This document shows, one piece after another, positions 16,511 to 18,943 of a stretch of DNA of 64,000 nt. Where the stretch lies: contig JAFDCZ010000001.1 in NCBI GenBank assembly GCA_019312665.1, positions 40,098 to 104,097 on the forward strand, written 5' to 3'. The stretch's first letter is position 1, and the number at the start of each line of letters is the position of its first letter. Source of the stretch: Deltaproteobacteria bacterium (GTDB taxonomy: Bacteria > Myxococcota_A > UBA9160 > UBA6930). Below the pieces are notes generated by a model. That model was not told the DNA's origin. It worked only from the letters and a program-made list of their open reading frames with translations, and searched no databases. A program made the position numbers and the translations under genes.

Positions 16511-18943
16511 ATGAGCCGGGGGGCTCTCGAAGGGATCAAGGTCGTCGAACTGGGCCAGCGTGTGGCGGCACCCTATTGCGCAAAGCTCTTCGCCGACTAC
16601 GGAGCCGACGTCGTCAAGGTGGAGCCTCCCGCGGGCGACGCCACCCGGCGTTGGGGTCCCTTCCCGAACGACGTGCCACACCCCGAGAAGAGCGGCCTCT
16701 ACCACTTCCTCAATACCAACAAGCGCAGCGTCACCCTCGACGTCGGCTCATTCGACGAACGCGACCTGCTGCGCCAGCTCATGGCGGGGGCCGACGTCCT
16801 GATCGAGGACAACCCACCCGAGCGGATGCAGGAGTGGGGTCTCGATTTCGACACGCTCTCGGCCCTGAACCCGAATCTGGTGATGATCTCGATCACGCCC
16901 TTCGGCCAGACCGGTCCCTACGCCGGGTGGAAGGGCTACGACCTGAACGCCTTCCACCTCACCGGGGCCGGCAGCCGCTACTGCGGAACGCCGGGGAACG
17001 CACCTCTCGAGCACGGAACCTTCGCCGCGGAGTTCTTTGGTGCAGCCGCGGCCTCGGCATGGGGGCTGGCGGCGTTCTACGGCCGAGAGCAGGCGGGGGG
17101 CGGGCAGCAACTCGATGTGTCCTGTGCCGAGGCGATCACCGCGACCTTCGTCGGCGGCCAGAACATCGGTGCCTATGCCCAGGACGGGGTGTTCGGCCAC
17201 CGTACTGGCGTAGGAATGCCCCTGGGTGCGCCCGCCACCATCGTCCCGTGCAAGGACGGCCACGTCTGGATGCTGGCGCTGGAGCCGGGCCAGTGGAACG
17301 GACTGGCGCGCGTGATGGGGAATCCCGACTGGATGCAACTCGAGATGTTCCAGGACATGGCCACGCGTGCCCAGAACGCCGATGCGATCTACCCGCTGAT
17401 CGAAGAGTGGACCGGCGAACGCGGCAAGCAGGAGATCATGGACCAATGTCAGGAGGCCGGCTGCCCGATCACGGCGGTCTTCGACGTCGCGGAAGCCGTG
17501 CAGCATCCACACCTCACCGAGCGGGGCTATCTCGTCGATCTCGAGCACGCCGAACTGGGCCGGATCCGGAGCCTGGGCGCTCCCTTCAAACTGCCTGACT
17601 GCCCCGGCGGACCCGAGCGAGCCGCGCCCCTGCTGGGCCAGCACAACAGCGAAGTGCTAGCCAACCTGGCTTCGGGAACCGTCGCGAAACCCGCGGCCTG
17701 CGCCCGGCCAGCTACGGCGGGCGCAGGTGGCGCGCTACCCCTCGACGGAATCCGCGTTGCGAACTTCGGCTGGGTGTGGGCGGGCCCGGTGACCGGCCAG
17801 ACCCTGGGATTCCTGGGCGCCGAGGTCTACAAGATCGAGTCCCGCAGTCGGGTGGACCTGCTCCGGACCTTGCCTCCCTTCGCCGGAGGTATTCGCGATC
17901 CGGATCGGAGCCTCTCGAACCACGCCTGCTGGGCGGGCAACGGAAGTGTGACCCTCGACCTCAAACGCGAGGAGGCCCGAGATCTCGCTCGCCAGCTGGT
18001 CGCGAAGTCGGACGTAGTGATCGAGAACTTCGGACCTTGCGTGATTGATCGGCTCGGACTCGGCTACGACGACCTTCGCAAGGTCAAACCCGATCTCGTC
18101 ATGTTCTCGATGCCAGCAGCGGGCTTGTTCGGCCCGCTCAAGGACATCCGAACCTACGGACTCAGTCTGACCAGCACAACAGGCCTCGACAGCCTGACCG
18201 GCTACTTCGGTGGTCCGCCGGTGCCGGTAGAGAACGCCTTCTCGGACCCGTACAACGGCATCCTGGGCGCCTTCGCCGTCCTCACCGCGCTGCGGCATCG
18301 CGACCGGACCGGGCGAGGCCAGCACGTCGACTATTCCCAGCAGGAAGCCGTGATGCAGATGGTCGGGCCGGCCTTCATGGACTACGAAATGAATGGACGG
18401 GTCGCAACGACGTTAGGCAACCGGCATCCCCTCGGCGCGGCTTCACCTCATGGCGTGTTCCCCTGCGCGGGCGAGGATCGCTGGATCAGCATCGCCGTGC
18501 ACGAGGATGACGAGTGGCGCAACCTCGTCCGCGCCATGGACCATCCCGAATGGGCCACCTCTCCCGAGCTGGCCGGCGGCGCGGGAAGGCTCGAGCGACT
18601 GGAAGCGATTCACGAGAATCTGGCCGCGTGGACCCGTGCCTTCGACGATCGCGAGCTGGCGGAGCGGCTCCAGCGAGAAGGCGTCCCCGCCGCGCCCGTT
18701 CTGAACGTTGCCGACCTCCTCGAAGACCCCCACTATCGCGCGCGCGGCACCTTCCTGTCGGTCCGACACCCACTCGGCTTCGACGAAACGATCTATGGCG
18801 GTTACGTGAAGATGAGTCGTACCCCGGCACGTGTGGAGCCCGGCCCCGTCATGGGAAGAGACAACGACTTCGTCTTCAAGCAGCTCCTCGGCCTCCCCGA
18901 GGAGCGCTATCGCGAGTTCGTCGAGGAGCAGATCATCTACTGA
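16511..18943 (+). CDS. Fusion of two family III CoA-transferase modules in one 810-aa polypeptide
   Basis: N-module: LEGIKVVELGQRVAAPYCAKLFADYGADVVKVEPPAGDATRR and GWKGYDLNAFHLTG. Ala/Gly/Pro linker near 17665-17745. C-module: LDGIRVANFGWVWAGPVTGQTLGFLGAEVYKIESRSR and IRTYGLSLTSTTG. The modules mirror genes 5836-7059 and 4571-5836 respectively. Confidence 0.9.
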   Translation: MSRGALEGIKVVELGQRVAAPYCAKLFADYGADVVKVEPPAGDATRRWGPFPNDVPHPEKSGLYHFLNTNKRSVTLDVGSFDERDLLRQLMAGADVLIEDNPPERMQEWGLDFDTLSALNPNLVMISITPFGQTGPYAGWKGYDLNAFHLTGAGSRYCGTPGNAPLEHGTFAAEFFGAAAASAWGLAAFYGREQAGGGQQLDVSCAEAITATFVGGQNIGAYAQDGVFGHRTGVGMPLGAPATIVPCKDGHVWMLALEPGQWNGLARVMGNPDWMQLEMFQDMATRAQNADAIYPLIEEWTGERGKQEIMDQCQEAGCPITAVFDVAEAVQHPHLTERGYLVDLEHAELGRIRSLGAPFKLPDCPGGPERAAPLLGQHNSEVLANLASGTVAKPAACARPATAGAGGALPLDGIRVANFGWVWAGPVTGQTLGFLGAEVYKIESRSRVDLLRTLPPFAGGIRDPDRSLSNHACWAGNGSVTLDLKREEARDLARQLVAKSDVVIENFGPCVIDRLGLGYDDLRKVKPDLVMFSMPAAGLFGPLKDIRTYGLSLTSTTGLDSLTGYFGGPPVPVENAFSDPYNGILGAFAVLTALRHRDRTGRGQHVDYSQQEAVMQMVGPAFMDYEMNGRVATTLGNRHPLGAASPHGVFPCAGEDRWISIAVHEDDEWRNLVRAMDHPEWATSPELAGGAGRLERLEAIHENLAAWTRAFDDRELAERLQREGVPAAPVLNVADLLEDPHYRARGTFLSVRHPLGFDETIYGGYVKMSRTPARVEPGPVMGRDNDFVFKQLLGLPEERYREFVEEQIIY

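What the first reader, a model, noticed from the sequence alone, without database searches (positions are those of the whole stretch)
16511..18943. Rosetta-stone fusion: an 810-aa double CoA-transferase reproduces, in one chain, the tandem gene pair at 4571-7059
The N-module of the fusion resembles gene 5836-7059. Compare LEGIKVVELGQRVAAPYCAKLFADYGADVVKVEPPAGDATRR with [41 protein letters not shown]. The C-module resembles gene 4571-5836. Compare LDGIRVANFGWVWAGPVTGQTLGFLGAEVYKIESRSR with LAGLRVVEFSAAMAGPWIGRFLAWCGAEVIRVESRSR. The module order is the same in both.

The tandem genes are ATGA-coupled, and the fusion joins the modules through an Ala/Gly/Pro linker near 17665-17745. Family III enzymes are interlocked dimers, so the fusion argues that the tandem pair forms an obligate heterodimer. 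This is comparable to the two-subunit BbsEF succinyl-CoA:benzylsuccinate CoA-transferase. I am not aware of a characterised single-chain double family III transferase.
Basis: seen in the sequence. Interest (0 to 1): 0.7.

Follow-up and report, generated by a model that had tools for sequence, protein, structure and literature searches.

The report
Fused two-subunit CoA-transferase gene
An 810-residue protein really does join the two unlike subunits of a benzylsuccinate-type CoA-transferase into one chain. Such fusions are common and one (DddD) is already characterised, so this is an uncharacterised member of a known kind, sitting in an anaerobic steroid-degradation gene island.

Summary
ORF 16511-18943 (+) encodes two complete family III CoA-transferase modules joined by a disordered Ala/Gly/Pro linker. 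Its N- and C-modules are reciprocal best matches of the tandem genes 7059-5836 and 5836-4571 (minus strand), in the same order.

It is not an artefact: more than 100 independent full-length homologues exist, and linker length varies between them.

A tree of 316 modules splits them into a BbsE-like type (N-modules, gene A, PDB 9FN0 chain A) and a BbsF-like type (C-modules, gene B, 9FN0 chain B), with 100/100 bootstrap support. The catalytic Asp is kept in 263 of 265 C-modules. It is variable in N-modules; here it is Glu174.

Within the fusion's own orthologue group, 53 genomes carry the fusion and 19 carry two genes separated by an in-frame stop at the junction. The 19 include Azoarcus sp. Aa7, a published anaerobic bile-acid degrader, and Aromatoleum evansii KB740, shown to grow on testosterone with nitrate. 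Gene pair A/B has its own fused counterpart at 58-60% identity.

The heterodimer inference is therefore well supported. The novelty claim is not: double-module proteins are abundant and DddD is characterised.

Gene context points to the anaerobic 2,3-seco steroid pathway, whose CoA-activating enzyme is still unassigned.

The parts
16511..18943 (+). Fused double family III CoA-transferase gene (810 aa plus stop)
   Evidence: ORF. Two full PF02515 matches. A 100% identical protein, P0001, is in an NCBI 'Deltaproteobacteria bacterium' MAG, and there are 119 further full-length homologues.
16511..17665 (+). N-module (residues 1-385), BbsE-like ('E-type')
   Evidence: Best in-window match is gene A. 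It groups with A and 9fn0_A in 100/100 bootstraps. Foldseek against 9fn0_A gives TMt 0.83.
17030..17032 (+). Codon GAG = Glu174, the N-module residue at the position of the catalytic Asp (Frc Asp169)
   Evidence: hmmalign column; coordinates. Among close homologues this position is D 95, E 24, A 1. Among 145 diverse fusions only 23 have D.
17666..17737 (+). Inter-module linker LASGTVAKPAACARPATAGAGGAL (residues 386-409)
   Evidence: pLDDT below 50 at residues 390-405. Across 265 fusions the gap between module envelopes runs from -10 to 103 residues and is enriched in Pro, Ala, Arg and Ser. In 19 orthologues the stop codon of the split form falls here.
17738..18940 (+). C-module (residues 410-810), BbsF-like ('F-type'), predicted catalytic module
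   Evidence: Best PDB match is 9fn0_B (206-210 bits). Foldseek TMt 0.92-0.93, rmsd 1.9-2.0. Best in-window match is gene B.
18245..18247 (+). Codon GAC = Asp579, predicted nucleophile. It aligns with Frc Asp169 and BbsF Asp178.
   Evidence: Alignment to 1p5h and 9fn0_B. Asp is conserved in 263 of 265 C-modules. Coordinates.
5836..7059 (-). Gene A, a stand-alone E-type subunit (407 aa). His175 (codon 6535-6537) occupies the catalytic-Asp position.
   Evidence: It is 60% identical to the N-half of fused protein P0240.
4571..5836 (-). Gene B, a stand-alone F-type subunit (421 aa). Asp185 (codon 5282-5284) is present. Its start overlaps A's stop as TGATG.
   Evidence: It is 58% identical to the C-half of P0240. 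119 of the 120 closest homologues listed are about 385-435 aa. In the two loci checked an E-type gene lies directly upstream.
7146..16494 (+). Co-directional genes upstream of the fusion: TetR, KstD-like flavoprotein (FAD_binding_2), luciferase-like, enoyl-CoA hydratase, ETF beta and alpha, DUF35 (ChsH2 OB/Zn-ribbon), SCP2-type thiolase, NMO-family flavoprotein
   Evidence: Pfam. Orthologues of NMO, ETF, DUF35, thiolase and ECH lie within 10 kb of the fusion orthologue in 20-24 of 80 loci.
18999..20537 (+). Aldehyde dehydrogenase gene 56 nt downstream of the fusion
   Evidence: Pfam Aldedh, E = 3.4e-140. This neighbour is not conserved: only 2 of 80 loci have it.
40382..47756 (-). Ring-A module of the 2,3-seco pathway by synteny: ECH, DUF35, thiolase-like, Amidohydro_2 (SRAH-like), xanthine-dehydrogenase-family Mo subunit (AtcA / 1-TDH-like) and its FAD subunit
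   Evidence: Pfam. These genes lie within 10 kb of the fusion orthologue in 25-33 of 80 loci. In L001 they are directly adjacent to it, and in Azoarcus sp. Aa7 and A. evansii KB740 the AtcA-like gene is nearby. The SRAH/1-TDH clustering is described in PMC11780191.

Best explanation
The gene encodes a functional single-chain version of a BbsEF-type heteromeric family III CoA-transferase.

Shown:
- There are two complete modules of two different, anciently diverged types, E-type at the N-terminus and F-type at the C-terminus.
- The modules are joined by a disordered linker of variable length.
- The whole chain is predicted with pTM 0.91, meaning the two modules pack as one unit.
- The carboxylate that forms the covalent Asp-CoA intermediate in family III enzymes is invariant only in the F-type module, where it is Asp579.
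- The same orthologue group switches repeatedly between one fused gene and two adjacent genes.

Inferred mechanism:
- The N-module is the interlocking partner that completes the fold and the active-site cleft around Asp579.
- Asp579 attacks a donor acyl-CoA to give an anhydride, then an Asp579-CoA thioester.
- It then passes CoA to an acceptor carboxylate.
- The N-module's own site carries Glu174, so it is probably weak or inactive in this protein.
- The tandem pair A/B (His175 in A, Asp185 in B) works the same way as a two-chain heteromer, on a different substrate.

Inferred role: ATP-independent CoA activation of a carboxylic acid intermediate of anaerobic steroid (2,3-seco pathway) catabolism. 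[quoted passage not shown] The exact acceptor is not established.
For: Architecture and authenticity:
- Searches show the ORF and its two domains.
- 2301 homologues at E <= 1e-30. Of the top 120, 118 are 801-886 aa and cover at least 99% of the query at 62-100% identity; the other two are shorter (719 aa, 88%; 791 aa, 98%).
- 265 of 270 retrieved proteins have two full modules.
- the linker varies in length.

E/F assignment:
- NJ tree of 316 modules with 100/100 bootstrap support.
- Best PDB matches are 9fn0_B for the C-half and 9fn0_A for the N-half.

Catalytic residue:
- Asp579 aligns with Frc Asp169 and with BbsF Asp178.
- PDB titles record an 'aspartyl-formyl anhydride intermediate', 'aspartyl-CoA thioester intermediates' and a 'D178-CoA adduct'.
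- Asp is kept in 263 of 265 C-modules. In N-modules the position is D118, E54, Y20, Q16, H12 and so on.

Heteromer as the functional unit:
- 53 fused against 19 split orthologues, the split forms having an in-frame stop at the junction, with at least 6 state changes on the tree.
- P0240 is the fused counterpart of A/B at 60% and 58% identity.
- Reversed F-E fusions P0243 and P0258 exist.
- The A-like/B-like gene pair is conserved in the two other genomes checked.
- Structure model: pLDDT 83.8, pTM 0.91.

Steroid role:
- Split orthologues (65-67% identity) occur in Azoarcus sp. Aa7, Aromatoleum evansii KB740, and Sterolibacterium and Steroidobacteraceae MAGs.
- AtcA-like and SRAH-like genes lie within 10 kb in 25-26 of 80 loci.
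- PMC11780191 states that the DSAO CoA ligase/CoA transferase is unidentified and that candidate genes lie in the SRAH/1-TDH clusters. It also shows that KB740 grows on testosterone with nitrate.
- PMC6678751 lists uncharacterised CoA transferases in the Sterolibacterium denitrificans clusters.
Against: - No biochemical data exist for this protein or its orthologues.
- The interlocked intramolecular N-C pairing rests on pTM and homology only, because coordinates and PAE were not available.
- In the fusion's own orthologue group the N-site is mostly Asp (95 of 120, and all of the cultured strains). The N-module may therefore be catalytically active in relatives, and 'dead module' may be too strong a reading.
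- DSA-CoA was made in Sterolibacterium denitrificans extract with ATP plus CoA. This fits a ligase.
- The same clusters contain other CoA-transferase candidates: the three tandem genes at 48709-52363 and the pair A/B.
- The adjacent aldehyde dehydrogenase is not a conserved neighbour (2 of 80 loci).
Confidence: 0.75

Rival explanations
1. The fusion is an assembly, frameshift or base-call artefact that removed a stop codon near 17.7 kb between two ordinary genes.
For: Orthologues in 19 genomes do have a stop at exactly this junction, in the same reading frame. A single base error could therefore create an apparent fusion.
Against: - 53 of 74 species-level genomes, and nearly all of the 120 closest clusters from NCBI, JGI, ENA and Logan assemblies, encode a continuous chain.
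- A 90% identical MAG protein is also 810 aa.
- The fused forms have lost the '...GGVI' C-terminal tail and the second start codon that the split forms keep. They carry a distinct Ala/Gly/Pro linker instead.
- Fused forms make up whole clades in the tree.
Confidence: 0.01
2. It is an orthologue of BbsEF-type arylsuccinate or alkylsuccinate CoA-transferases and acts in a fumarate-addition hydrocarbon pathway.
For: - Closest solved structure is BbsEF.
- JGI labels many homologues 'BbsF subunit'.
- The neighbourhood has BbsAB-like DUF35 plus thiolase, a BbsH-like ECH, ETF and a CCG-type Fe-S oxidoreductase. This resembles bbs operons of strict anaerobes (PMC10818641).
Against: - Identity to BbsE/BbsF is only about 33%. 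Another fusion, P0257, is closer to BbsEF at 42-43%.
- None of the window ORFs scanned against Pfam, which include all those above 650 aa, matched a glycyl-radical enzyme family.
- The conserved neighbours are AtcABC-like and SRAH-like steroid genes.
Confidence: 0.06
3. It is a DddD-type CoA-transferase/lyase that acts on DMSP or a related substrate.
For: The architecture is the same: two CaiB-like modules in one chain (PMC7174347). From my own memory of the abstract of Alcolombri et al. 2014, the DddD catalytic Asp (Asp602) lies in the C-terminal module, as it does here.
Against: - No DMSP-related context: there is no BCCT transporter or dddB/C/R-like set in the window.
- None of the 120 closest homologues carries a DddD name.
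- Conserved neighbours are beta-oxidation and steroid ring-A genes.
- Sequence relationship to DddD could not be measured, because no DddD sequence was obtainable.
Confidence: 0.02
4. Both modules are catalytically active, giving one chain with two different active sites. This could mean two acceptors, or a donor-side and an acceptor-side specialisation. Alternatively, the chains pair between molecules (N with N', C with C').
For: - Most close orthologues keep Asp at the N-site, and the N-module also keeps the acidic residue at the Frc Glu140 position.
- N-modules are almost as conserved as C-modules: mean pairwise identity 33.5% against 36.6%.
Against: - The window protein has Glu174. PDB holds an Frc Asp169->Glu variant alongside Asp169->Ala and Asp169->Ser; from my memory these variants are inactive.
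- D, E and A interchange among close orthologues, and 122 of 145 diverse fusions have a non-Asp residue. This indicates relaxed constraint at the position.
- The E-type partners 9fn0_A (Tyr) and gene A (His) lack the Asp.
Confidence: 0.15

Closest known systems
Succinyl-CoA:(R)-benzylsuccinate CoA-transferase BbsEF (PDB 9FN0, 9FOL, 9FUN)
   Same: - Two unlike family III subunits. The E-type lacks the catalytic Asp (Tyr in chain A); the F-type carries it (Asp178, seen as a CoA adduct).
- Gene order is E then F.
- The C-module superposes on chain B at TMt 0.92-0.93.
- The neighbourhood has DUF35/thiolase, ECH and ETF partners.
   Different: - Here the two subunits are one polypeptide.
- Identity to BbsEF is only about 33%.
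- The N-site has Glu (Asp in most orthologues) rather than Tyr.
- There is no benzylsuccinate synthase context.
- Conserved neighbours are anaerobic steroid ring-A genes.
DddD, DMSP CoA-transferase/lyase (Marinomonas, Endozoicomonas and others)
   Same: A single chain with two CaiB-like family III modules (1-416 and 439-821 in E. acroporae; PMC7174347). It has been biochemically characterised (Alcolombri et al. 2014, cited there). From my memory, the catalytic Asp is in the C-terminal module.
   Different: - The substrate (DMSP) and the added lyase chemistry differ.
- The gene context differs.
- Orthology was not tested here because no DddD sequence was available.
Split orthologues in Azoarcus sp. 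Aa7, Aromatoleum evansii KB740, A. diolicum 22Lin, and Sterolibacterium and Steroidobacteraceae MAGs (uncharacterised 'CoA transferases')
   Same: - Same orthologue group at 65-67% identity.
- Same module order.
- Same C-site Asp.
- In Azoarcus sp. Aa7 and A. evansii KB740, the same neighbours: AtcABC-like, ECH, ETF, DUF35/thiolase. A. diolicum 22Lin and the Steroidobacteraceae MAG share part of this set, and the Sterolibacterium MAG showed none at the threshold used.
   Different: These are two genes (414 + 408 aa in KB740) separated by TGA plus 9 nt in the same frame. They keep the free C-terminal tail and a second start codon.
Homodimeric family III CoA-transferases (Frc, YfdW, CaiB, SUGCT, Mct)
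   Same: Same fold (Foldseek TMt 0.8-0.92 per module) and the same Asp-based covalent mechanism.
   Different: Those enzymes are two identical interlocked chains with two equivalent active sites. Here the two modules are non-equivalent and sit in one chain.

Membership tests
Family III CoA-transferase (Pfam PF02515, CaiB/BaiF) | Full-length match to the family profile | tested here: met
   The fusion has two stretches, the best covering residues 6-379 against profile positions 1-366 of 366, whole-protein E = 1.1e-197. A and B each have one full match.
Family III CoA-transferase (Pfam PF02515, CaiB/BaiF) | Catalytic Asp equivalent to Frc Asp169 | tested here: met
   The C-module has Asp579 and gene B has Asp185. 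This is NOT met in the N-module (Glu174) or in gene A (His175).
Family III CoA-transferase (Pfam PF02515, CaiB/BaiF) | Interlocked-ring dimer topology | not testable with these tools
   The AlphaFold2 model has pTM 0.91 and each half matches family III chains. No coordinates or PAE are returned, so threading cannot be inspected.
BbsEF-type heteromeric family III transferases | One E-type and one F-type module or subunit, in E-then-F order | tested here: met
   Module tree: the N-half groups with 9fn0_A and A, and the C-half groups with 9fn0_B and B, in 100/100 bootstraps.
BbsEF-type heteromeric family III transferases | Nucleophile Asp only in the F-type partner (BbsF Asp178) | tested here: inconclusive
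   The C-site Asp is invariant. The N-site is Glu here but Asp in 95 of 120 close homologues.
BbsEF-type heteromeric family III transferases | Orthology or substrate: benzylsuccinate, with bss/bbs operon context | tested here: not met
   About 33% identity to BbsE/BbsF. No glycyl-radical enzyme among the window ORFs scanned against Pfam. No NCBIfam equivalog reaches its cut-off.
DddD (DMSP CoA-transferase/lyase) | Two CaiB-like modules in one chain | tested here: met
   the DddD architecture is taken from PMC7174347.
DddD (DMSP CoA-transferase/lyase) | DMSP catabolic gene context (transporter, dddB/C, LysR regulator) | tested here: not met
   The window's neighbours are TetR, ETF, thiolase/DUF35, ECH, NMO and ALDH.
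DddD (DMSP CoA-transferase/lyase) | Sequence orthology to characterised DddD | not tested
   No DddD sequence could be obtained. The paper is not held and afdb50 is unavailable.
Anaerobic 2,3-seco steroid pathway gene set | Co-location with 1-TDH (AtcABC) and SRAH genes, and presence in known anaerobic steroid degraders | tested here: met
   AtcA-like and SRAH-like genes lie within 10 kb in 25-26 of 80 orthologue loci. Orthologues are present in Azoarcus sp. Aa7 and A. evansii KB740. Pathway facts come from PMC11780191 and PMC8399759.
Anaerobic 2,3-seco steroid pathway gene set | Demonstrated activity on a seco-steroid acid, or induction by steroids | not testable with these tools
   This requires enzyme assays, proteomics or genetics.

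The most novel reading that the evidence does not exclude
The fused E-F CoA-transferase, together with its split orthologues in Azoarcus and Aromatoleum and in Sterolibacterium and Steroidobacteraceae MAGs, is the still-unassigned enzyme that activates the ring-A cleavage product 1,17-dioxo-2,3-seco-androstan-3-oate (DSAO), or a later seco-acid, in the anaerobic 2,3-seco steroid pathway. It would do so without ATP, by recycling acetyl-CoA or succinyl-CoA. The window would then show that uncultured Myxococcota-like or 'Deltaproteobacteria' bacteria carry a full anaerobic sterol catabolic island: three S25DH-like Mo enzymes, AtcABC-like genes and an SRAH-like gene. The pathway has been thought to be limited to beta- and gammaproteobacteria.
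Probability: 0.25. Interest if true: 0.6.

Novelty: new member of a known kind. Interest (0 to 1): 0.4.

Why it matters
As a piece of protein architecture it is not new. Single-chain double family III transferases are abundant, DddD is characterised, and the BbsEF heteromer structure is solved.

Its value is as a clean natural experiment. One orthologue group switches at least six times between one gene and two genes through a stop codon at the module junction, and reversed-order fusions also exist. This establishes the E/F heteromer as the conserved functional unit. It also lets the many unannotated tandem 'CoA transferase' pairs be read as one enzyme, including pair A/B here and the pairs listed in anaerobic steroid gene clusters.

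The conserved linkage to the AtcABC and SRAH genes gives a concrete, testable candidate for the unassigned CoA-activation step of anaerobic steroid ring-A degradation. Cultured organisms are available for the test: A. evansii KB740 and Azoarcus sp. Aa7.

Tried and rejected
1. I first took the 'GYD' motif (Asp144 in the N-module, Gly550 in the C-module) for the catalytic Asp, which made the C-module look dead. Counting residues in the Frc and BbsF alignments, and the 9FOL title 'D178-CoA adduct', showed that the nucleophile is the later 'FSD' Asp. This reversed the assignment. The GYD column corresponds to Frc Glu140 and shows the opposite asymmetry, D/E in N-modules and G/A in C-modules. That remains unexplained.

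2. Literature searches for a paper on the 9FN0 structure, for fused BbsEF, for Rv1866, and a badly designed OR-type search found nothing relevant. The Alcolombri 2014 DddD paper is not held.

I could therefore neither list named UniProt fusions nor superpose DddD.

4. NCBIfam gave only sub-threshold matches to single-module families.

5. In tblastn against plasmids, most matches were both halves hitting one single-module gene. Only a few were true 2.3-2.4 kb fusions (H8, H9, H22).

6. The idea that the adjacent aldehyde dehydrogenase supplies the acceptor acid was dropped. That neighbour is conserved in only 2 of 80 loci.

7. The supplement of PMC11780191 with the cluster synteny is not held.
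Full report
**Observation.** The ORF 16511-18943 (+) encodes 810 residues with two complete PF02515 family III CoA-transferase matches, whole-protein E = 1.1e-197. A runs 7059->5836 (407 aa) and B runs 5836->4571 (421 aa), each with one PF02515 domain. Their junction reads GTC ATC TGATG CCC.

tblastn inside the window shows reciprocal best relations:
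- N-half to A: 32.3% identity, 186 bits. The next paralogue scores 148 bits and B scores 139 bits.
- C-half to B: 38.2% identity, 234 bits. The next scores 147 bits and A scores 118 bits.

The window holds three further family III genes in tandem at 48709-52363 (-).

**Not an artefact.** The large protein database holds 2301 homologues at E <= 1e-30. Of the best 120, 118 are 801-886 aa and cover at least 99% of the query at 62-100% identity; two are shorter (719 aa, 88% coverage; 791 aa, 98%). They come from NCBI, JGI, ENA and Logan assemblies. One is 100% identical and comes from an NCBI 'Deltaproteobacteria bacterium' MAG.

Most of the length variation I inspected lies between the two modules, where low-complexity linkers of up to 103 residues occur. 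Against the library clustered at 50% identity, the top 150 hits are almost all 742-886 aa collinear two-module proteins at 33-42% identity. A profile built from the window's modules finds two full modules in 265 of the 270 proteins retrieved. True fused genes also occur on replicons of cultured Variovorax, Bosea and Mycobacterium. The architecture is therefore old, diverse and common.

**Two kinds of module.** I aligned 316 modules to one profile and built a neighbour-joining tree. The modules comprised the N and C halves of diverse fusions, A, B, the three other window paralogues, and PDB chains 9fn0_A, 9fn0_B and 4ed9.

The tree has two major groups. One holds the N-modules together with gene A and 9fn0_A. 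The other holds the C-modules with gene B and 9fn0_B, with the homodimer-type proteins (4ed9, and the paralogues at 48.7-52.4 kb) near its base. In 100 of 100 bootstrap replicates the window's N-half, A and 9fn0_A fell in the first group, and the C-half, B and 9fn0_B fell outside it.

9FN0 is the solved succinyl-CoA:(R)-benzylsuccinate CoA-transferase BbsEF. From my own recollection of the subunit lengths, chain A (410 aa) is BbsE and chain B (409 aa) is BbsF. I call the two groups E-type and F-type. Two proteins, P0243 and P0258, have the reverse order, F-type then E-type. They must be independent fusions.

**Catalytic residue.** My first guess, that the 'GYD' motif holds the nucleophile, was wrong. 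Counting along the alignment to Frc (1p5h) puts Asp169 at '...AALGD SNSG'. This aligns with 'NAFSD579PYNG' in the C-module and with 'NYTD178' in 9fn0_B. The title of PDB entry 9FOL is 'BbsEF, D178-CoA adduct'. Other PDB titles document the aspartyl-anhydride and aspartyl-CoA intermediates of this family.

The residues found in that alignment column are as follows:

| Module or protein | Residue |
|---|---|
| C-modules of fusions | Asp in 263 of 265 |
| N-modules of fusions | D 118, E 54, Y 20, Q 16, H 12, S 12, A 10, others |
| Window N-module | Glu174 |
| Gene A | His175 |
| 9fn0_A | Tyr |
| Gene B | Asp185 |

Only 23 of the 145 diverse fusions (the 50%-identity cluster representatives) have Asp at the N-site.

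The picture needs one qualification. Inside the fusion's own orthologue group the N-site is usually Asp: 95 of 120, including every cultured strain checked. The window's Glu is therefore a variant at a relaxed position, not proof of a dead module. N-modules are nearly as conserved overall as C-modules, at 33.5% against 36.6% mean pairwise identity. The N-module is thus under selection, probably as the structural partner.

**Structure.** AlphaFold2 on a 53-sequence alignment gives pLDDT 83.8 and pTM 0.91 for the whole chain. Residues 390-405 have pLDDT below 50. Foldseek matches the C-half to BbsEF chains B and D (TMt 0.92-0.93, rmsd about 1.9) and the N-half to chain A (TMt 0.83). No PDB chain longer than 456 residues matched, so no fused member appears to have been solved. 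The tool returns no coordinates, so the interlocked topology could not be inspected.

**Better Rosetta stones than the in-window pair.**

First, the fused protein P0240 (829 aa) is 60% identical to A over its N-half and 58% identical to B over its C-half. That is far closer than the window's own fusion. In the tree it is the nearest neighbour of both A and B. P0257 plays the same role for BbsE/BbsF, at 42% and 43%.

Second, I scanned one genome per species and obtained 80 orthologous loci at 53-80% identity. Of 74 analysable loci, 53 encode a continuous chain. Nineteen have a stop codon in the same reading frame exactly at the junction (residues about 392-413), followed by a short spacer and a new Met. 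In Aromatoleum evansii KB740 the sequence is ...GGC GTC ATC TGA TCG GGG AAA ATG..., giving ORFs of 414 and 408 aa. Parsimony on the orthologue tree needs at least six fused/split changes.

Third, 119 of the 120 closest homologues of B listed are about 385-435 aa (the exception, P0296, is 623 aa), so the split form predominates. Several sit on contigs of the same length as those carrying fusion homologues, which suggests the pair and the fusion co-occur. An E-type gene lies directly upstream in the two other genomes checked.

Together these results show that the E/F heteromer is the conserved unit and that its gene structure is labile.

**What is already known.** DddD, the DMSP CoA-transferase/lyase, has two CaiB domains (1-416 and 439-821) in one chain. 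It was characterised biochemically by Alcolombri et al. 2014 (PMC7174347; also PMC5395668). From my memory of that abstract, its active-site Asp602 lies in the C-terminal module, as it does here. I could not obtain a DddD sequence to place it in the tree. No NCBIfam equivalog reaches its cut-off for the fusion, A or B.

**Context and likely role.** The fusion closes a co-directional run of genes: TetR, a KstD-like flavoprotein, a luciferase-like protein, ECH, ETF beta and alpha, DUF35, an SCP2-type thiolase and an NMO-family flavoprotein. An aldehyde dehydrogenase follows it.

The rest of the window holds:
- three ethylbenzene-dehydrogenase/steroid-C25-dehydrogenase-like Mo alpha subunits, with one beta and one gamma subunit;
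- three phytoene-desaturase-like flavoproteins;
- an old-yellow-enzyme-like reductase;
- two CoA ligases;
- an acyl-CoA dehydrogenase;
- a block of ECH, DUF35, thiolase-like, Amidohydro_2 and xanthine-dehydrogenase-family Mo enzyme genes.

PMC11780191 identifies an amidohydrolase-2 protein (SRAH) as the ring-A hydrolase of the anaerobic 2,3-seco steroid pathway. It shows that SRAH clusters with 1-testosterone hydratase/dehydrogenase (AtcABC, a Mo enzyme). It reports that A. evansii KB740 grows on testosterone with nitrate. It lists 'a CoA ligase/CoA transferase' for the ring-opened acid DSAO among the still-unknown enzymes, with candidate genes in those clusters.

The fusion's orthologues occur in KB740 and in Azoarcus sp. 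Aa7, a published anaerobic bile-acid degrader (PMC8399759). They also occur in A. diolicum, and in Sterolibacterium and Steroidobacteraceae MAGs. Orthologues of the window's AtcA-like and SRAH-like genes, at 50% identity or more, lie within 10 kb of the fusion orthologue in 25 and 26 of 80 loci. Many of the remaining loci are short contigs. In the Myxococcota MAG locus L001 these genes are directly adjacent to the fusion. A review lists uncharacterised CoA transferases in the Sterolibacterium denitrificans clusters, including an adjacent pair and one near AtcABC.

I therefore infer a role in CoA activation of a seco-steroid acid, possibly DSAO. [quoted passage not shown]

Three points weigh against the specific DSAO assignment. 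DSA-CoA was prepared in cell extract with ATP and CoA, which fits a ligase. Other CoA-transferase candidates share the clusters. And there are no functional data.

**Verdict.** The novelty claim is not supported. This is an uncharacterised member of a known kind of enzyme. Its added value is a clean fusion/fission series and a testable candidate for an open step of anaerobic steroid degradation.

Noticed in passing
window 40382-47756 (-): An Amidohydro_2 gene (42820-43791) lies directly beside a xanthine-dehydrogenase-family Mo enzyme (43813-46263) with its FAD subunit (46767-47756). ECH, DUF35 and thiolase-like genes are also there. This is the SRAH/1-TDH (AtcABC) arrangement of the anaerobic 2,3-seco steroid pathway, here in a 'Deltaproteobacteria'/Myxococcota-like MAG. 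PMC11780191 concluded that the pathway seems restricted to beta- and gammaproteobacteria.
   Followed up: partly
window 1-3801 (-), 24658-27594 (+), 37456-40521 (-): There are three ethylbenzene-dehydrogenase/steroid-C25-dehydrogenase-like molybdopterin alpha subunits. One runs off the left end of the window (2095-><1) and has a twin-arginine motif. It is preceded by gamma (3801-3130) and beta (3126-2098) subunits; the Sterolibacterium denitrificans S25DH entry in the PMC6678751 legend likewise begins gamma-, beta- (the text retrieved is cut off there).
   Followed up: partly
window 48709-52363 (-): Three further family III CoA-transferase genes lie in tandem and are conserved as a trio in L001. 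Two keep the catalytic Asp. The third (51143-52363) has His at that position, like an E-type subunit, which suggests another heteromer. An orthologue of the first (64% identity) sits next to the AtcA-like gene in Azoarcus sp. Aa7 and A. evansii KB740.
   Followed up: partly
fusion residues 144 / 550 (window 16940-16942 / 18158-18160); alignment column of Frc Glu140: There is a reciprocal asymmetry. The position aligned with Frc Glu140 ('GYD') is acidic in N-modules, A and 9fn0_A. It is Gly or Ala in C-modules, B and 9fn0_B. Homodimer-type proteins have an acidic residue at both this position and the Asp169 position. I have no explanation for this.
   Followed up: no
P0243 (860 aa) and P0258 (803 aa), from the 50%-identity library: These are reverse-order fusions, with the F-type module first and the E-type second. 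They are independent fusion events of the same subunit pair.
   Followed up: partly
L048 (fused) versus L041 (split), sister loci in Pseudomonadales MAGs: A fused form is nested inside the otherwise split beta/gammaproteobacterial clade. This suggests a recent re-fusion by loss of the junction stop codon.
   Followed up: no
window 53274-55349 (+) and 11828-13698 (+): A CCG/4Fe-4S protein (HdrD-like) occurs together with dedicated ETF alpha and beta genes. This resembles the ETF plus ETF:menaquinone oxidoreductase pair of bbs operons in strict anaerobes (PMC10818641). It hints at an anaerobic respiratory outlet for acyl-CoA dehydrogenation.
   Followed up: no
window 20621-23913 (-) and 27761-29242 (-): There are three phytoene-desaturase/amine-oxidase-like flavoproteins of unknown role. 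A 'phytoene dehydrogenase-like protein' is also listed in the Sterolibacterium denitrificans steroid cluster (PMC6678751 legend).
   Followed up: no
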